Assembly (NCBI RefSeq): GCF_035084215.1
Contig: NC_090357.1
Coordinates: 8,370,001 to 8,434,000, forward strand
Source of the DNA: Heptranchias perlo
Lineage: Eukaryota
Reading direction: 5' to 3'
Length of the DNA: 64,000 nucleotides
This document shows, piece after piece, positions 26,036 to 64,000 of the stretch (the stretch's first letter is position 1; every line of letters starts with the position of its first letter). The notes beneath the pieces were generated by a model. The model was not told where the DNA came from. It searched no databases and saw only the letters and a list, made by a program, of their open reading frames with translations. Both the position numbers and the translations under genes were made by a program.

Positions 26036-26160
26036 CCATGATGTGGAGATGCCGGTGATGGACTGGGGTGGACAAATGTAAGGAATCTTACAACACCAGG
26101 TTATAGTCCAACAATTTTATTTTAAAATAAAATTGTTGGACTATAACCTGGTGTTGTAAG
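26036..26160. mobile_element. Miniature Penelope-like insertion: tail plus perfect 74-bp palindrome, with TSD
   Basis: Homologous to 59882-59966. Palindrome 26087-26160 has no spacer. TSD TTTCAGATTAG at 26025-26035 and 26161-26171. Confidence 0.88.
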
Positions 26161-33299: not shown

Positions 33300-33700
33300 A
33301 TCCTGGGAGAGGAAAAAAATCTTATGCCAATTTAGGAACTGACTCTGGGAAATTCTTCTCCGACCCCTAACGGCACTCAGACAAGTTCCAGGAGATACAC
33401 ACCCCAATAGTCTACACTTTTCTGGAGTAAAAAGGCCCTGCTCTCTAAGCCTAGCATGGTAATTGAAAGTTTTTAAACTAGGTACCAATCTCGTGGCCTT
33501 CCTCTAAACCTTTTCCAGGAGCTCTACATCACCCACCATAAGAAGGGTCCACAACTGGACACAGTATTCTAGATAAGGCCTGACCAAGGTCTTGTACAAA
33601 TTGCTGGACTATAACTTGGTGTTGTAAAATTGTTTACAATTGTACAAAGACAGAATAGTATTTCTTGTTTTGCATTTAATCGTCCTAGCAACACATCCTG
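33300..33700 (-). mobile_element. Old CR1 fragment
   Basis: Minus strand reads LYKTLVRPYLEYCVQLWT-like and LGLF-like RT C-terminal sequence. Confidence 0.7.
33601..33639 (+). mobile_element. 39-bp Penelope-like terminal fragment with 9-bp TSD
   Basis: Identical by eye to 60978-61016. Flanked by TTGTACAAA at 33592-33600 and 33640-33648. Confidence 0.8.
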
Positions 33701-41145: not shown

Positions 41146-41676
41146 CCTAACCCAATTGCCAACCGTTCAATTCTGACAAGCCAGAAAAGGAAACTGCATC
41201 CAGCAAAAAGTCATTGCTGACACGACAGAGGTTGGGTCCAGGAATGCTGCTGCCAATGGTACAAGAACCATGCAATGCAGCCGAAGCGGTCGTTCAAGGT
41301 AAAAGAGCCTTAAACTGTCTCGCTCAGGCCAATGTAAAGTTGTAGTCTCTGATGTTTACAATGAATGCTTAATAATTCATATAATCAGAGAACCCTAAGC
41401 AGGTAAGAAGATCCTCGTCAAAGGCCGCCCGGTGAGCAAGAAAGCTTTTTTTTTTAAGTTTTCATTTAAAACATTTGTGAAGCATACCCAAATTTGGGCC
41501 TTGATGTCATGTTGCACAAAAATTATTTTTTCAGTCTTTCCCTTCCACGTTTCCTAGGTTCAGTTCTTCAATTCATCTCAGTCCCAAGACATTGCTGCAG
41601 GAGTTCCTCAGGGCAGTGACCTAGGCCCAACCACCTTCAGCTGCTTCATCAATGACCTTCCCTCCATCATAAGGTC

Positions 41677-42821
41677 CCACACAAGAGGTTAGTGTGCAAA
41701 ATTAAAGCACATGGGATTGGGGGGAATATACTGGCATGGATTGAGAATTGGTTGACAGGCAGGAAACAGAGAGTAGGAATAAACGGGTCTTTTTCCGGGT
41801 GGCAGGCAGTGACTAGTGGGGTACCGCAGGGATCAGTGCTTGGGCCCCAGCTATTCACAATATATATCAACGATTTGGATGAGGGAACTGAATGTAACAT
41901 TTCCAAGTTTGCAGACGACACAAAGCTGGGGTGGAATGTGAGCTGTGAGGAGGATGCAAAGAGGCTCCAATGTGATTTAGACAAGTTGGGCAAGAACATG
42001 GCAGATGCAGTATAACGTGGATAAATGTGAGATTATCCACTTTGGTTATAAAAACAGAAAGACAGATTATTATCTGAATGGCGATAGATTGGGAAAAGGG
42101 GAGGTACAACGAGACCTGGGTGTCCTTGTACACCAGTCGCTGAAAGCGAGCATTTAGGTGCAGCAAGCAGTTAGGAAGGTGAATGGTATGTTGGCGTTCA
42201 TTGCAAGAGGATTTGAGTACAGGAACAAGGATGTCTTACTGCAGTTGTACAGGGCTTTGATGAGACCACATCTGGAGTATTGTGTGCAGTTTTGGTCTCC
42301 TTATCTGAGGAAGGAGATCCTTGCCATGGAAGGAGTGCAACGAAGATTTACCAGACTGATTCCTGGGATGGCAGGACTGACATATGAGGAGAGATTGGGT
42401 CGACTAGGCCAATATTCACTAGAGTTTAGAAGAATGAGAGGTGATCTCATGAAAAATATAAAATTCTAACAGGACTAGACAGACTAGATGCAGGGAGGAT
42501 GTTCCCGATGGATGAGAAATCCATAACTAGGGGTCACAGTCTCAGGATACGGGGTATGCCATTTAGAACCGAGATGAGGAGAAATTTCTTCACTCAGAGG
42601 GTAGTGAACCTGTGGAATTCTCTACCACAGAAGGCAGTGGAGGCCAAGTCATTAAATATATTCAAGAAGGAGACAGATATATTTCTTAATGCTAAAGGGA
42701 TCAAGGGATATGGGGAAAAAGCGGGAACAGGGTACTGAGTTAGACAATCAGCCATGATCATTTTGAATGGCGGAGCAGGCCCGAATGGCCTACTCTTGCT
42801 CCTATTTTCTATGATTCTATG
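41677..42821 (+). mobile_element. 5'-truncated CR1 family A inserted in family B, 8-bp TSD
   Basis: ORFs 41692-42015 (KFADDTK), 42158-42469 and 42499-42738. Tail ttctatgattctatg. TSD ATAAGGTC at 41669-41676 and 42822-42829. Confidence 0.93.
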
Positions 42822-42920
42822 ATAAGGTCAGAAATGGGGATGTTCGCTGATGATTGCACAGCGTTCAGTTCCATTCGCAACCCCTCAGATAATGAAGCAG
42901 TCCGTGCCCGCATGCAGCAA

Positions 42921-43705
42921 ATAACATTCGCACCGGACAAGTGCCAGGCAATGACCATCTCCAACAAGAGAGAGTCTAACCACCTCTCCTTGACATTCAA
43001 CGGCATTACCATTGCCGAATCCCCCACCATCAACATCCTGGGGGTCACCATTGACCAGAAACTTAACTGGATCAGCCACATAAATACTGTGGCTACAAGA
43101 GCAGGTCAGAGGCTGGGTATTCTGCAGCGAGTGACTCACCTCCTGTCTCCCCAAACCCTTTCCACCATCTACAAGGCACAAGTCAGGAGAGTGATGGAAT
43201 ACTCTCCACTTGCCTGGATGAGTGCAGCTCCAACAACACTCAAGAAGCTCGACACCATCCAGGACAAAGCAGCCCGCTTGATTGGCATCCCATCCACCAC
43301 CCTAAACATTCACTCCCTTCACCACCGACACACTGTGGCTGCAGTGTGTACCATCCACAGGATGCACTTCAGCAACTCGCCAAGGCTTCTTCAACAGCCC
43401 CTCCCAAACCCGCGACCTCTACCACCTAGAAGGACAAGAGCAGCAGGCACATGGGAACACCACCACCTGCACGCTCCAAGTCACACACCATCCCGACTTG
43501 GAAATATATCGCCATTCCTTCATCGTTGCTGGGTCAAAATCCTGGAACTCCCTTCCTGACAGCACTGTGGGAGAACCTTCACCATACGGACTGCAGCGAT
43601 TCAAGAAGCTGGCTCACCACCACCTTCTCAAGGGCAATTAGGGATGGGCAATAAATGCTGGCCTTGCCAGCAACGCCCACATCCCATGAACGAATAAAAA
43701 AAAAA
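42921..43705 (+). mobile_element. Second family-B copy inserted in the host family-B element
   Basis: Has its own poly-A end at about 43695-43705. The host sequence atgcagcaa (to 42920) resumes seamlessly as gacctggacaac at 43706. Confidence 0.75.
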
Positions 43706-44844
43706 GACCTGGACAACATCCAGGCTTGGGCTGATAAGTGGCAAGTAACATTCGTGCCAGACAAGTGCCAGGCAATGACCATCTCCAACAAGAGAAAGTC
43801 TAACCACCTCCCTTTGACATTCAACAGCATCACCATCACCAAATCCCCCACCATCAACATCCTGGGGGTCACCATTGACCAGAAACTTAACTGGACCAGC
43901 CACATACATACTGTGGTTACAAGAGCAGGTCAGAGGCTGGGTATTCTGCGGTGAGTGACTCACCTCCTGACTCCCCAAAGCCTTTCCACCATCTACAAAG
44001 CACAAGTCAGGAGTGTGATGGAATACTCTCCACTTGCCTGGATGAGTGCAGCTCCAACAACACTCAAGAAGCTCGACACCATCCAGGACAAAGCAGCCCG
44101 CTTGTTTGGTACCCCATCCACCACCCTAAACATTCACTTCCTTCACCACCGGTGCACCGTGGCTGCAGTGTGCACCATCCACAGGATGCACTGCAGCAAC
44201 TCGCCAAGGCTTCTTCGACAGCACCGCCACCACCTAGAAGAACAAGGGCAGCAGGCACATGGGAGCAACACCACCTGCACTTTCCCCTCCAAGTCACACA
44301 CCATCCCGACTTGGAAATAAATCGCCATTCCTTCATCGTCGCTGGGTCAAAATCCTGGAACTCTCTACCTAACAGCAATGTGGGAGAACCTTCACCACAC
44401 GGGCTGCAGCGGTTCAAGATGGCGGCTCACCACCACCTTCTCGAGGGCAATTAGGGATGGGCAATAAACGCTGGCTTTTCCAGCGACGCCCACATCCCGT
44501 GAACGAATAAAAAAAAATTATCAGCACAAATTTCCTTTACACACACAATACTTGCCATGCAATCACTTTTATTGCATTTGTCTTGCCCTTGGACCATGGT
44601 CCCCACTGCTCTCTCCCCAGCCCTGCTTGACTTACCTCACTGAATGCTGCTTCTCAACACCTGCCGCTCCTCTCCCAAAGCCACTACTTCCCAGTTCTCA
44701 CCACCGCTCATGCAACATCTGTGGCCACGTTATGAGCAACAGTCTACAGCACATCACATCTGTGCCCATTCCACCAAGCAGAGATGCGGGAGCCACATCA
44801 CTGGTAATTTGAATGCAAAGGAAAGAACTGCATTTCAGAAATAG

Positions 44845-56589: not shown

Positions 56590-56949
<360 letters not shown>

Positions 56950-57594: not shown

Positions 57595-59130
57595 GACTCA
57601 GGCAAAGCTGCATTTATTGCCCATCCGTGGTTGCCCCAAGAAGGTGGTGGGCTTTCTCCTTGAACTGCTGCAGTCCTTGAGGTGATGGTGCTCCCACAAT
57701 GGTGTTAGGTAGAGAAATCCAGGATTCTTATCGACCAATGAAGGTACAGTGATATATGTCCAAGTCAAGATGACATGTGACTTGGTGAGGGACTTGGAGG
57801 TGATGGTCTTCTTAGTGGTAGGGTCACAGGGAAGGAAAATGCTGCTGAAGTAGCCTTTTAAGTGGCTGCTTTGCATCCTGTAGATTGTACATACTGCAGC
57901 CACAATGAGTCAGTGGTGGAGGGGGTGGATGTTGAGTGAACTGCTCTATCCTGAATGGTGTCAAGCTTCTAGAGTATTATTGCAGCTGCACCCACCCAGA
58001 CAAGTGGTAAGTATTCCATCGCACTCCGGATTTGAGCCTTGCAGATGGCGGAGAGGCTTTGAGGGGTCAGGAGGTGAGCCACTCATCAGCCCCTGTCCTG
58101 CTCTTGTAGCCACGGTGTTGATATGGCTGGTCCAGTTCAGCTTCTAGCCAATGGAAATCCCCAGGATGGTCCAGTGGATGTGGCTGGGCTTTCTCTTACT
58201 CGAGATAGCCATTACCTGGCACTTATTGGCATAAATGTTAGCTACCATTTGTCAGCCCAAGCCTGGATGCTATCCAGGTTTTGTTGTAGGCAGACATGGG
58301 CTGTTTCGTTATCAGAGGAGTTGTAAATGTTGCTGAACACTGTGGAATCGTAGGTGAACAGCCCCACTCCTGACCTTATAACGGAGGTATGGTCATTGAT
58401 GAAGCAGCTGAAGATGGTTGTGCTGAGAACACTTCCCTGAGGAACTCCTGCAGTGATGGTCTGAGGCTGTGATTACTGATCTCCCAACAACCACAACCAT
58501 CTTCCTTTGCGTTAGGTATGACACCAGACATTGAAGCATTTTCCCTTTGAACCCAAGTCACTTCAGTTTTGCTAAGGCTCCTTGGTGCCATACTTAGTCA
58601 AATGCTGCCTTGATGTTGAGGGCAGCTACTCTTACCTCTCCTCTGGCATTCATCTCTTGTGTCCATGTCTGGATCAAGGTTGTGATGAGGTCTCGTGCTG
58701 AGTGGTTCTGATGGAACCCGAACTGAGCATCGGTGAGCAGGTTATTGATAGTAGGTGTTGCTTGGCACTATTGATGACTTCTTCCATCACTTTACTGATG
58801 ATTGGAAGGATGTTGATAGGATGATAATGGCCAGGTTAGATTTGTCCTGTTTTTATATTCTTGACCAATCTTCCACTTTGTCGAGTAGATGCCAGTGTCA
58901 TATAGTTGTACTGGAACAATTTGGCTAGAGCAGCAGCTAGCTCTGGTGCACAGGTCTTCAGCCCTACAGCTGGTGTGTCCTCAGGGCTCATAGCCTTTGC
59001 TGTATCCAGTGCACTTAGCCACTTTGTAATGTTATGTGGAGTGAACTGAATTTGTTGCACACTGGTATCTATAATGGTGGGGACCTCAGGAGGAGGCAGA
59101 ATAGGATCACCCACTCTGTACTTTTGGTTG
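57595..59130 (-). mobile_element. Older family-B CR1-clade LINE
   Basis: ALDTAKAMSPEDTPAVGLKTCAPELAAALAKLFQ, gcaggagttcctcaggg, AAVCTIYRM, and 3' UTR gatgggcaataaatgc. Confidence 0.88.
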
Positions 59131-59966
59131 ATTACACTTCTGTAATTATATTATTTTAAAACCGTATAAAGGTAGCCTAGCAACTATAAATCTGAAGGAT
59201 TGGACTATCAGCTAGCAAACAAAAATTCTGAACCCTTCCCTTGACTAAAATCTGTAGGTTCTCTCTTTATGGGCTACTGCAATATGAGTATCCCTGCCTG
59301 CACTTAGTTTGAGGCCCTATTTAGTGCTGTTTAATGTTGCAATATTTCAGCAGGTAAAATGTTAAAAATTACTATATCTTGGGATGGGGGGTGTGCATTT
59401 GTAAATAGAACCTTCCCACTTCTACATCCCAAAGCAGCTTTAATACTTATATGCAAATGCAGCGCATGCTATGGCGCAGAAATCACCGTATCATTTTCAT
59501 TACAAACTTCCTTTCTAAGTGTAAAGCTTTTGTGGAAATTATTACTAATTGAGAGCATTTAGTCTGTCTGTTCAAAATGTACTTCAGTGCTGTACTGAAT
59601 TAAACAAAACATGTGAAAATCTTTAAGCCACTTTCCTGGGAGCATTCACAAATATGTATTGAAAATCTTTTTACATTATTTCCCTACCCTCTCCTTCCAA
59701 AAATTGCAAGGCATGACTGGCTCCCAAATTATGATTAATTTACTGTATATAATGCAAAACCACTCAGGTAACAAGTAAGATGCATTCAGGGTCAATTGTT
59801 TTATACTTGTACAACAGTTTTACGATCGGCCAGACCTAGAAGCAGTTTGTTATTCTATTAATCAATACTGACTTTTCTGTAATGTGGAGATGCCGGTGAT
59901 GGACTGGGGTTGACAATTGTAAACAATTTTACAACACCAAGTTATAGTCCAGCAATTTTATTTTAA

Positions 59967-60007
59967 ATTCACAAGCTTTCGGAGGCTTCCTCCTTCCTCA
60001 GGTGAAT
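59967..60007 (-). ncRNA. Minimal type I hammerhead ribozyme motif, inverted copy (sense to SIK3)
   Basis: Exact reverse complement of 60926-60966. Confidence 0.75.
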
Positions 60008-60350
60008 GTTGTGGAAATGAAATCCTCGAAATGAAATCGCATTTATAAATCACAGAACAATGCTTGGTGATTACAGACAGTTTTTTCAACTGCCCGTTGC
60101 CAAGGCAATCAGTGTGCAGACAGACAGGTGTTACCTACAAGGTCTCCGAATATACAAATCACCAAAAAAAAAAGAGATAGAGAGGTAGAAACATAGAAAA
60201 GACAGCAACTGACCCGTTATATTAGAAACAGATAACATTTGTTCGCTGGTGGGGTAACGTGTAGCGTGACATGAACCCAAGATCCCGGTTGAGGCCGTCC
60301 TCATGGGTGCGGAACTTGGCTATTAATTTCTGCTCGACGATTTTGCGTTG

Positions 60351-60710
60351 TCGTGTGACTCGGCCAACGTTGTCTACCTCATACGTTGCAGGAAAGGATG
60401 CCCCAGAGCATGGTACATTGGCTAGACCATGCAGACGCTGCGACAACGGATGAACAGACACCGCGCAACAATCACCAAACAGGAGGGTTCCCTCCCAGTC
60501 GGGGAACACTTCAGCAGTCAAGGACATTCAGCCACCGACCTTCGGGTAAGCGTACTCCAAGGCGGCCTTCGAGACACACGACAACGCAAAATCGTCGAGC
60601 AGAAATTGATAGCCAAGTTCCGCACCCATGAGGACGGCCTCAACCGGGATCTTGGGTTCATGTCACGCTACACGTTACCCCACCAGCGAACAAATGTTAT
60701 CTGTTTTTAA
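60351..60710 (+). pseudogene. PLE GIY-YIG endonuclease domain, 5'-truncated with a premature stop
   Basis: SCDSANVVYLIRCRKGCPRAWYIG*TMQTLRQRMNRHR...PVGEHFS...GH...RKIVEQKLI...GLNRD. TAG at 60423-60425. Confidence 0.88.
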
Positions 60711-60925
60711 TATAACGGGTCAGTTGCTGTCTTTTCTATGTTTCTACCTCTCTATCTCTTTTTTTTTTGGTGATTTGTATATTCGGAGACCTTGTAGGTA
60801 ACACCTGTCTGTCTGCACACTGATTGCCTTGGCAACGGGCAGTTGAAAAAAACTGTCTGTAATCACCAAGCATTGTTCTGTGATTTATAAATGCGATTTC
60901 ATTTCGAGGATTTCATTTCCACAAC

Positions 60926-60966
60926 ATTCACCTGAGGAAGGAGGAAGCCTCCGAAAGCTTGTGAAT
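60926..60966 (+). ncRNA. Minimal type I hammerhead ribozyme motif in the PLE terminal repeat
   Basis: ATTCAC-CTGAGGA-A-GGAGG-AAG-CCTCC-GAAA-GCTT-GTGAAT: 6-bp stem I, CUGANGA and GAAA cores, 5-bp stem II, palindromic AGCU in place of stem III. Confidence 0.75.
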
Positions 60967-61504
60967 TTAAAATAAAATTGCTGGACTATAACTTGGTGTT
61001 GTAAAATTGTTTACAACTTTTCTGTACAAAGCTCTTCCACGTCTCACACCAAAGAATGGTTGTTTATTTCCATCAAAGGAAATTCTGCTTCGCAAACAAA
61101 AAAGTCTCCAAGCAAGATGCTACTGAATGCACCAAATGCTCTCACACCATCAAAAATCCCAAAGTATTCCAACACCTATATCTGCTAATGTTACATCACA
61201 GCTTTCAATATAAATGAAGCTGCACCTCTGCCGCTGGAGGAGCTTGTAATCAAATCAGTAGGCTCTCCAGAAGTGGCAGTGTCTCCAGTGGGGAACTTAA
61301 ATGGACTGCGATACAGGACACCACTGAAGAGTATTTTTATGACCATGGGCAGGCCAAGTTCTAATAAGCAAAGTGAATTTTGAACCATTGTTTTTCAGTT
61401 GTCGCTGATGTTCTGAAATCTACTGTGCAAAGTAACTGGAAGCTACAAAGAACTTTTTTTTTTAAAGTAGAGAACAGGGTCAATTGGCCTTTCTTGTCTG
61501 TGCT

Positions 61505-64000
61505 AACATAAGAATATAAGAAATAGGAGCAGGAGTAGGCCACATGGCCCCTCAAGCCTGCTCTGCCATTCAATCAGATCATGGCTGATCTTCAACCTCA
61601 ACTCCACTTTGCTGCCCGATCGCCATATCCCTTGATTCACCAAGAGTCCAGAAATCTATCTACCTATCTCAGCCTTGAATATATTCAACGACTCAGCATC
61701 CACAGGCCTCTGGGGTAGAGAATTCCAAAGATTCACAACCCTTTGAGTGAATAAATTCCTCCTCATCTCAGTCTTAAATGGCCTGCGACTATGTCCCCTA
61801 GTTCTAGACTCTCCAACCAGGGGAAACCACCTCTCAGCATCTACCCCTCTCAAGCCCCCTCAGAATCTTATATGTTTCAATGAGATCACCTCTCATTCTT
61901 CTAAACTCCAGAGAGTATAGGCCCATTCTACTCAACCTCTCCTCATAGGACAACCCTCTCATCCCAGGAATTAATTTAGTGAACCTTTGTTGCACCGCCT
62001 CTAAGGCGAGTATATCCTTTCTTCGGTAAGGAGACCAAAACTGTACGCAGTACTCTGGGTGAGGTCGCAGCAAAGCCCTGTATAACTGTAGTACAACTTC
62101 CTTACTCTTGTACTCCAACCCCCTAGCAATAAAGGCCAACATGCCATTTGCTTTCCTAATTGCCTGCTGTACCTGCAAGCTAACTTTTTGTGTTTCTTGT
62201 ACCAGGACACCCAGATTTCTCTGAACACCAACATTTACTAGTTTCTCACCATTTAAAAAACGTTCTGTTTTTCTATTCTTCCTACCAAAGTGAATAACCT
62301 CACATTTCCCCACATTACATTCCATCTGCCACCTCCTTGCCCATTCACTTAACCTGTCTATATCCCTTTGCAGACTCTGTGTCCTCCTCACAGCTTACTT
62401 TACCACCTAGCTTTGTATCAGCAGCAAACTTGGATACATTACACTCAGTCCCTGCATCTAAGTTATTAATATAGATTGTAAATAGCTGAGGCCTAAGCAC
62501 CGATTCTTGCGGCATCCCAATAGGTACAGCCTGCCAAACTGAAAATGACCCGTTTATCCCTACTCTCTGTTTTCAGTCCATTAACCAATCCTCTATCCAT
62601 GCTAATATATTACCACCAACCCCATGAGCCCTTATCTTGCGTAACAACCTTATGTGGCACCTTATCGAATGCCTTTTGAAAATCCAAATATACTACATCC
62701 ACTGGTTCCCCTTTATCTACTCTGCTAGTTACATCCTCAAAAAACTCTAATAAATTTGTCAAACACGATTTCCCTTTCATAACACCATGTTGACTCTGCC
62801 TAATCATATTATGATGTTCTAAGTACCCTATTACCACTTCCTTAATAATGGATTCCAGTATTTTCCCAACGACTGATATCAGGCTAACTGGCCTGTAGTT
62901 CCTTGTTTTCTCTCTCCTTCCTTTCTTGAATAGCAGGGTTACATTTGCTACCTTCCAATCCGGTGGGACCGTTCCAGAACCTAGGGAACTTTGGAAGATC
63001 ATAACCAATGAATCCAGTATCTCTGCAGCCACCTCTTTTAGAACCCTAGGATGTAGGCCATCAGGTCCAGGGGATTTATCGGCTTTTAGTCCCATTAGTT
63101 TCTCTAGTATTTTTTCTCTACTGATATTAATTACTTTTAAGTTCCTCACTCTCATTAGCCCCTTGGTTTCCCATTATTTCTGGTATGCTTTTTGTGCCTT
63201 CTACTGTGAAGACAGATACAAAATATTTGTTTAACGCATCTGCCATTTCCTGATTCCCCATTATAATTTCTCCTGTCTCAGCCTCTAAGGGACCAACATT
63301 TATTTTTGCTACTCTCTTCCTTTTTACATACTCGTAGAAGCTCTTACAATCCGTTTTTATAATTCTTGCCAGCTTACTTTCATATTCTATTTTCTCCCTT
63401 TTTATCAATATTTTGGTCACCTTTTCTGATTTCTAAAACTCTCCCAATCCTCAGGCTTACTTCTCTCCTTGGGAACATTATAGGCCTCTTCTTTTAATCT
63501 GATACAATCCTTAACTTCTTTAGTTAGCCACAGACAGATCACTTTTCCCCTGGAGTTTTTATTTCTCAATGGAATGTATGTTTGTTGAGACTATTGAAAT
63601 ATTTCTTTAAATGTTTGCCATTGTTTATCAACCATCATACCCTTTAATCTAATTTCCCAATCTACTTTAGGCAACTCGCTCTTCATAGCTATGTATTTGG
63701 CTTTATTTTAAGACTCCAGTTTTTGACATTAAGTATGTCATTCTCAATCTCAATGTGAGATTCTATCATATTATGATCACTCTGCCCCAAAGGATCCTTT
63801 ACTGTGAGATTACTAATTAACTCTGTCTCATTATACAATATAAGATCTAAAATAGCCTGTTCCCCAGTTGGTTCCATAACGTATTGTTCTAGGAAACCAT
63901 CTCGAATGCATTCCATTAACTCGTCCTCCAGACTACCTTTGCCAATTTGATTTGCCCAGTCTATATGAAGATTAAAGTCCCACACAATTACTGCATTACC
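61505..64000 (-). mobile_element. Long CR1 LINE (APE C-terminus plus RT), continuing beyond the window
   Basis: Fragmented ORF2: DFN...LDLIL...SDHN (63689-63985), KSPGPDGLHPRVLKE, NYRPVSL, YLDFQKAFDKVPH, CVQFWSP. Tail of TTCTTATG-like repeats at 61505-61525. Confidence 0.95.

What the first reader, a model, noticed from the sequence alone, without database searches (positions are those of the whole stretch)
59882..61016. Young inverted Penelope insertion placing a hammerhead ribozyme and a 441-bp hairpin in SIK3 pre-mRNA
Seen: two near-identical ~441-bp inverted arms around a 217-bp spacer, a 35-nt tail on one arm only, a 10-bp TSD, and a hammerhead motif in each arm. Established: PLEs carry minimal hammerheads in their pLTRs, thought to work as dimers, and often insert as inverted structures with a short tail. 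Inference: SIK3 is transcribed on the minus strand, so the motif at 60007-59967 is in the pre-mRNA, but its antisense arm is transcribed first and should mask it inside a long dsRNA. That dsRNA would be a candidate ADAR or endo-siRNA substrate about 3 kb upstream of the catalytic-loop exon.
Basis: partly seen in the sequence, partly recalled or inferred. Interest (0 to 1): 0.7.

Follow-up and report, generated by a model that had tools for sequence, protein, structure and literature searches.

The report
Ordinary Penelope hairpin in SIK3 intron
A young, truncated Penelope jumping-gene copy with mirror-image ends sits in an intron of the SIK3 gene, where its small ribozyme motif is predicted to be locked inside a long RNA hairpin; because the genome holds about 65,000 such motifs and a related species lacks this copy, it is likely an ordinary passenger rather than a regulator of SIK3.

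Summary
The anatomy is confirmed. The arms are 441/442 bp around a 217-bp spacer, with a 35-nt tail on one arm, a 10-11-bp TSD and one minimal hammerhead per strand. The insertion lies 3.1 kb upstream of the SIK3 catalytic-loop exon, in a ~31-kb intron. It is a 5'-truncated head-to-head insertion of a probably active Neptune-type Penelope family. It is not special: the genome holds 65,374 hammerhead cores, 43 of 75 sampled loci are head-to-head, and 13 of those have arms of 400 bp or more (about 420 such loci extrapolated for this motif variant). SIK3 introns carry three more inverted copies. A relative has an empty site. Folding supports masking: forming the ribozyme in the pre-mRNA costs about 68 kcal/mol, and the two motifs lie on opposite strands, so they cannot dimerise within one transcript. 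Three RNA contigs from the carrier individual cover exactly the next exon, consistent with normal splicing. Editing at this locus could not be tested, but massive editing of Penelope copies is already published for lizard. The scan found this family many times in this genome, and a similar intronic copy in another genome. Verdict: real, ordinary, likely neutral.

The parts
59872..59881 (.). Left target-site duplication (10 bp; 11 with the ambiguous A at 59871)
59882..59916 (-). 35-nt Penelope tail, on this arm only; in full-length copies it ends just before the ORF start codon
59917..60357 (-). Short inverted arm: 5'-truncated element end (last part of the endonuclease region plus pLTR)
59967..60007 (-). 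Minimal type I hammerhead motif in SIK3 pre-mRNA sense; predicted paired to 60926-60966
60354..60362 (.). Inversion junction: 4-nt exact microhomology (60354-60357), 8 of 9 nt if extended
60354..61016 (+). Long copy: C-terminal GIY-YIG endonuclease fragment (60354-60710, private stop at 60423-60425) plus pLTR, no tail
60575..61016 (+). Right arm; antisense in the SIK3 pre-mRNA and transcribed first
60926..60966 (+). Second hammerhead motif, antisense to SIK3
61017..61026 (.). Right target-site duplication
56595..56756 (-). SIK3 catalytic-loop exon (fourth coding exon by my count), downstream of the insertion in transcript order

Best explanation
This is a lineage-specific, 5'-truncated head-to-head insertion of a Neptune-type Penelope retrotransposon in a SIK3 intron, whose single sense-strand hammerhead is predicted to be buried in a ~440-bp hairpin and is likely inert, making the insertion a likely neutral passenger. 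Shown: anatomy, family, abundance, intronic position and the empty site in a relative. Inferred formation: the element's protein nicked both strands 10-11 bp apart. Two reverse transcripts started at the two tail boundaries (one with tail, one without), grew inward, and joined at a 4-nt microhomology. Inferred RNA fate: transcription meets the antisense arm first, and the sense arm zips onto it as it emerges. The ribozyme, which is reported to need a dimer partner or the element's protein, does not fold. The hairpin is probably A-to-I edited like other inverted repeats and leaves with the intron.
For: Parent family: full-length copy L092 has a 902-aa ORF with RT (RVT_1 E 3.8e-10) and the same inverted-arm and one-sided-tail form. 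17 of 70 protein matches lie in a 918-codon stop-free frame. Abundance: 3,248 exact 41-mers and 65,374 degenerate cores. Of 75 loci (all of the first 100 listed exact hits), 43 are simple head-to-head; of these 37 have a tail on exactly one arm, 31 a TSD of 10 nt or more, and 13 arms of 400 bp or more. Junctions: 11 of 23 long junctions have 1-4 nt of exact overlap (mean 2.2, null 0.63). Youth: 98-99% identity to the 38 other copies scored, about 2 private changes per copy, and an empty site in organism B. Masking: duplex -81.2 against -12.7 kcal/mol; forcing stems I and II costs 67.7 kcal/mol; every motif base pairs to the antisense arm with P>=0.997. 3 of 3 RNA runs give 1.1-kb contigs covering exactly the next exon. 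Papers: minimal hammerhead monomer inactive and dimer weak (PMC4209133); lizard Penelope hammerhead cuts only with protein, and that protein nicks and extends both strands from two start sites at the tail (PMC11167929).
Against: No expression comparison with an insertion-free allele exists, so a small effect on SIK3 is not excluded. The RNA data are contigs of one sample, RNA status is a guess by the tool, and I did not see the letters flanking the exon. 12 of 23 junctions show no overlap with the single reference copy, so microhomology joining is not universal, and one complex locus was counted twice. 32 of 75 loci are not simple head-to-head. Folding is an equilibrium calculation plus one truncated-transcript fold; hyper-editing or RNA-binding proteins could open the duplex. 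Contigs running unbroken into the insertion in 3 DNA runs of one individual hint at homozygosity, which fits drift but also benefit. Organism B is distant (about 83% flank identity) and lacks 10 nt of the target site, so the age bound is loose.
Confidence: 0.85

Rival explanations
1. The hairpin has a real regulatory effect on SIK3 without cleavage: editing, nuclear retention or slowed splicing of the intron tunes SIK3 output.
For: Near-perfect ~440-bp duplex with 261 adenosines in the two arms. Elephant shark brain has about 200,000 hyper-edited sites, 81% in repeats (PMC5625713). The carrier may be homozygous.
Against: It lies 3.1 kb from the nearest exon in a ~31-kb intron. About 420 comparable loci are extrapolated for this motif variant alone. 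Exon-only RNA contigs occur in 3 of 3 runs. The site is empty in a relative.
Confidence: 0.08
2. The hammerhead cuts SIK3 pre-mRNA conditionally, once editing or a helicase opens the duplex and the element's own protein or a second hammerhead assists.
For: The motif is intact and has all listed minimal-hammerhead features. Without the opposite arm, stems I and II form with P about 0.4-0.56. The family appears active, and protein-assisted cleavage is published for a lizard element (PMC11167929).
Against: The folding penalty is 67.7 kcal/mol. The nearest same-strand intact motif found in the gene is about 100 kb upstream and itself in a hairpin. Editing would also change core adenosines (established hammerhead chemistry, recalled). 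No RNA-seq reads ended at the cut site in lizard. A cut intron can still splice in vertebrates (recalled).
Confidence: 0.04
3. The hairpin is a source of endogenous siRNA that helps silence the Penelope family.
For: Long perfect duplex. Penelope copies yield small RNAs in rotifer and fly (PMC3846280 passages).
Against: The rotifer reads are mostly piRNA-sized. Vertebrate endo-siRNA from long hairpins is mostly an oocyte phenomenon, and intronic RNA stays nuclear (recalled). Any signal would be shared by thousands of copies. No small-RNA data were available.
Confidence: 0.03

Closest known systems
Endonuclease-bearing Penelope-like element insertions with an inverted 5'-truncated copy, a 30-40-bp tail on one end and a TSD (PMC8557442, PMC3846280; passages read)
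   Same: Head-to-head arms, 35-nt one-sided tail, 10-11-bp TSD, 5' truncation; the parent has RT, a Cys-rich linker and a GIY-YIG domain.
   Different: Nothing of kind. This copy holds no RT and only the end of the endonuclease.
Minimal type I hammerheads of metazoan Penelope pLTRs (PMC4209133; results and discussion read)
   Same: Core boxes, extra base between positions 9 and 10.1, G10.1-C11.1 pair, palindromic stub of helix III. Pairs 100-700 bp apart on opposite strands are described there.
   Different: Helix I is 6 bp and helix II 5 bp here. That paper's text names no cartilaginous fish in the parts I read. Activity is untested here.
Hyper-edited repeat hairpins: Penelope in lizard, palindromic Harbinger in frog (PMC5625713; passages read)
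   Same: A self-contained long duplex formed by one insertion in a transcript.
   Different: Editing at this locus is not shown.
Conserved intronic ribozymes of amniotes and mammals (RECK hammerhead, CPEB3 HDV-like; recalled, not from a call)
   Same: Ribozyme motif in sense orientation inside a host intron.
   Different: Those are single-copy, conserved and active as monomers. This one is one of tens of thousands, lineage-specific, lacks a stable helix III, and is predicted masked.

Membership tests
EN+ Penelope-like element | Parent ORF with reverse transcriptase | tested here: met
   L092, 902 aa, RVT_1 E 3.8e-10; the window copies align to it at 93-95%
EN+ Penelope-like element | C-terminal GIY-YIG endonuclease | tested here: inconclusive
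   The two-part motif and downstream R, H, E, N residues are seen by eye (motif recalled). Pfam gave no GIY-YIG hit.
EN+ Penelope-like element | Inverted 5'-truncated copy adjoining the 5' end | tested here: met
EN+ Penelope-like element | 30-40-bp tail on one end only | tested here: met
   35 nt on the left arm only; 37 of 43 sampled inverted loci likewise
EN+ Penelope-like element | Target-site duplication | tested here: met
   10-11 bp; family mode 12-13
Neptune clade | Zn-finger-like Cys motif in the RT-EN linker (PMC8557442) | tested here: met
   CxxxxCxxC in L092 and L033, read by eye
Neptune clade | RT phylogeny | not tested
   No reference Penelope sequences were fetched.
Minimal PLE hammerhead | Core boxes, extra base after position 9, G10.1-C11.1, palindromic 15.2-16.2 | tested here: met
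   against the features in PMC4209133
Minimal PLE hammerhead | Helices I and II supported by variation | tested here: inconclusive
   15 distinct variants in 30 loci. Double-sided changes occur at one helix I pair (2 of 15) and at the helix II closing pair (3 of 15), with many G-U swaps. Breaks also occur (A-C in 3 of 15; 5 of 15 at that helix I pair). The search pattern fixed most of helix II.
Rfam hammerhead families | Covariance-model match | tested here: not met
   no hammerhead family among 7 hits at E<=10
Minimal PLE hammerhead | Self-cleavage | not testable with these tools
   needs a bench assay
Co-opted intronic ribozyme | Conserved at the orthologous site in other species | tested here: not met
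   empty site in the one relative tested
ADAR hyper-editing substrate | Long near-perfect duplex in a transcript | tested here: met
   predicted
ADAR hyper-editing substrate | A-to-G clusters in RNA reads of this locus | not testable with these tools
   Only contigs were served, and none could be assigned to this copy.

The most novel reading that the evidence does not exclude
Head-to-head Penelope insertions are self-disarming. Read-through from either side meets the antisense arm first, so the ribozyme is always buried. Selection may therefore tolerate these forms in introns while purging lone sense-strand hammerhead copies, and thousands of long perfect hairpins would make this family the dominant ADAR substrate of this genome. 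The SIK3 copy would be one test case. All 3 insertions with a hammerhead core inside SIK3 are inverted and no lone sense copy was seen, but that is too few to test the idea.
Probability: 0.2. Interest if true: 0.45.

Novelty: new member of a known kind. Interest (0 to 1): 0.15.

Why it matters
As a single locus it matters little: it is one of hundreds to thousands of equivalent hairpins and shows no sign of conservation or of an effect on SIK3. As a class, these insertions record how Penelope elements integrate (two primed strands joined head to head). They could also show whether ribozyme-bearing retroelements are filtered by orientation inside genes. If this copy did cut or tune SIK3 pre-mRNA, it would be a host-gene effect of a Penelope hammerhead. 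One search for that listed three papers, none on such an effect by title or abstract start.

Tried and rejected
Rfam scan of 58000-63000: no hammerhead hit. Pfam on the endonuclease fragment: nothing above cut-off. Run search on the left flank: no RNA holder listed. RNA contigs gave no cover of the unique intron flank 59137-59850 or of 60997-61500; this is not evidence on transcription. The heavy RNA-contig cover of the tail region comes from the whole family and cannot be assigned to this copy. Heterozygosity: no empty-site loose end among the rows listed for the carrier's DNA runs, but the lists were cut (666 and 11 rows hidden) and contigs drop variants. An editing scar in the DNA of this copy was rejected: only about 4 private changes, with no A-to-G run. 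An extra exon at 61120-61340 was considered: no long open frame. The two motifs forming a dimer was rejected because they are on opposite strands. An assembly artefact was rejected: arms differ at 3 places, a TSD is present, and DNA contigs cross both junctions (these runs may be the source of the assembly). Literature searches; one search returned nothing relevant. No supplements were read; the in vitro cleavage figures of PMC4209133 are in its supplement and were seen only as described in the text.

Full report
Observation. The arms are 59917-60357 and 60575-61016 (441/442 bp, two substitutions and one indel). They extend five bases further across one more mismatch. The spacer is 217 bp. A 35-nt extension lies on the left arm only, and a 10-bp duplication flanks the whole, 11 bp with one ambiguous base. 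The same 41-nt motif lies at 60926-60966 (+) and 60007-59967 (-). Rfam did not call it: none of its 7 hits was a hammerhead. By eye it has every feature listed for minimal Penelope hammerheads in PMC4209133 (abstract, results, discussion and start of methods read).

Host gene. The exon at 56595-56756 (-) encodes the catalytic loop and matches human SIK3 best (E 2e-28; MARK4 1e-22). I fetched 200 kb beyond the window and found three upstream coding exons on the minus strand, at window-equivalent positions ~87.7, ~90.4 and ~211.4 kb. The insertion is thus in a ~31-kb intron, 3126 bp upstream of the acceptor. That the host is a cartilaginous fish comes from earlier scan notes and my recall of the element; I did not test it.

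What the element is. The long copy (60354-61016) encodes the end of a GIY-YIG-type endonuclease with one stop, followed by the pLTR (motif read by eye, no Pfam hit). A full-length relative, L092, has a 902-aa ORF with RT, a CxxxxCxxC linker of the kind that marks the Neptune and Nematis clades (PMC8557442 passages), an inverted 270-bp arm and a one-sided tail. 17 of 70 protein matches sit in a 918-codon stop-free frame, so the family is probably active. The window copy is young. It is 98-99% identical to the 38 other copies scored and carries about two private changes per copy against six near relatives. In organism B one contig aligns to the right flank at about 83% identity. Its loose end matches the left flank at 59841-59870, 25 of 30 bases against a next-best 19. 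The site is therefore empty there, although B also lacks 10 nt of the target sequence.

How common the anatomy is. The exact 41-mer occurs 3,248 times and a degenerate core 65,374 times, about one per 50 kb; reversed controls gave 0. I fetched all 75 loci behind the first 100 listed exact hits (contig C1) and mapped them on L092. 43 of 75 are simple head-to-head pairs. Of these, 37 have a tail on exactly one arm, 31 a TSD of 10 nt or more (mode 12-13; 3 of 600 unrelated flank pairs reach 10), and 13 have arms of 400 bp or more. The other 32 are lone or more complex. Scaling 13 per 100 hits gives about 420 long-armed hairpins for this variant alone, if C1 is typical. Within SIK3, three further inverted insertions lie at 26.0, 126.7 and 160.3 kb, and two lone antisense fragments at 33.6 and 139.2 kb.

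How it formed (inferred). The lizard Penelope protein nicks and extends both strands and starts reverse transcription at the two ends of the tail (PMC11167929, first half of the text read). Two such cDNAs growing inward give exactly this structure: tail on one side, TSD, head-to-head junction. The junction here has 4 nt of exact microhomology. 11 of 23 long junctions in the sample overlap by 1-4 nt (mean 2.2, null 0.63). The other 12 do not overlap, and one locus was counted twice. Earlier scan notes reached the same reading on other loci of this genome; they are not independent support. An alternative in print is self-priming on an antisense template (PMC3846280 passages).

What happens in the pre-mRNA (predicted). 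The motif alone folds at -12.7 kcal/mol, and its duplex with the antisense copy at -81.2. In 1.3 kb of context every motif base pairs with the other arm at P>=0.997, and forcing helices I and II costs 67.7 kcal/mol. A transcript cut 10 nt past the motif is also fully zipped. Without the opposite arm the helices form at P 0.4-0.56. The second motif is on the other strand, so no dimer forms within the insertion. The nearest same-strand core found lies about 100 kb upstream, in its own hairpin. Published minimal hammerheads were inactive as monomers and weak as dimers. The lizard one cut only with protein, and no RNA-seq reads ended at its site. Masking is a property of the geometry, so it applies to every head-to-head copy in any transcript.

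RNA and DNA data. Only contigs were served. Three runs guessed to be RNA, from the same sample as the DNA, each give a 1.1-kb contig that covers 56595-56757 and continues on both sides with sequence not in the stretch. This fits spliced SIK3 mRNA in a carrier, though I did not see the flanking letters and cannot judge levels. DNA contigs from three runs of that individual pass unbroken into the insertion, a weak hint of homozygosity. Editing and small RNAs could not be tested.

Comparison with what is known. The insertion form (PMC8557442, PMC3846280), the motif including opposite-strand pairs 100-700 bp apart (PMC4209133), and heavy A-to-I editing of Penelope copies are all in print. The last is over 40,000 sites in lizard, with about 200,000 hyper-edited sites overall in elephant shark brain (PMC5625713 passages). 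The preprint 10.64898/2026.07.22.740005 (passages) adds that 1 of 9 frog retrozyme dimers cleaved in vitro. PMC10636886 was seen only as a search listing. The scan also holds a near-identical earlier finding in a CEP128 intron of another genome. The locus fails the test for a co-opted intronic ribozyme (not conserved in the one relative tested).

Verdict. A real, well-described, ordinary insertion, likely neutral (0.85). The one reading with some reach is family-wide: head-to-head copies disarm their own ribozyme and may be preferentially tolerated in introns (0.2). That needs a gene annotation to test. Interest 0.15.

Noticed in passing
window 26038-26159: Older mini head-to-head insertion of the same family in the next SIK3 intron; both arms start downstream of the hammerhead.
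   Followed up: partly
window 33598-33643: 46-bp lone pLTR-end fragment, antisense to SIK3, apparently flanked by a short duplication.
   Followed up: no
L015:2713-2893 and L018:6315-6498: Two more inverted mini-insertions in SIK3 intron 1.
   Followed up: partly
L029-L088, L099-L113: 54 of 133 pieces begin within about 17 nt upstream of helix I or at the first core bases, and 1 of 133 at the predicted cut site. This suggests that inserted templates were uncut and started just upstream of the ribozyme. The sample is biased because anchors required an intact motif.
   Followed up: partly
L092:212-3681: Full-length copy with an intact 902-aa ORF, inverted arm, partial pLTR and one-sided tail; the tail ends two bases before the start codon.
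   Followed up: yes
loci: In most copies the tail is followed by the first few bases of the ORF start context, which may reflect short homology with the target at priming; the SIK3 copy lacks this.
   Followed up: no
window 61026-61458: Intronic flank alignable to organism B at about 83% identity, with no long open frame.
   Followed up: partly
L084:2603-2634, L088:803-871, L105:507-1548, L107:2463-2643: Complex junctions with extra internal element pieces between or beside the arms, suggesting template jumps.
   Followed up: no
window 41575-44439 against 57638-58473 and 61658-62656: Older 75-83% identical inverted repeat pairs that span the SIK3 catalytic-loop exon; pairing across an exon could in principle favour skipping or circularisation.
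   Followed up: no
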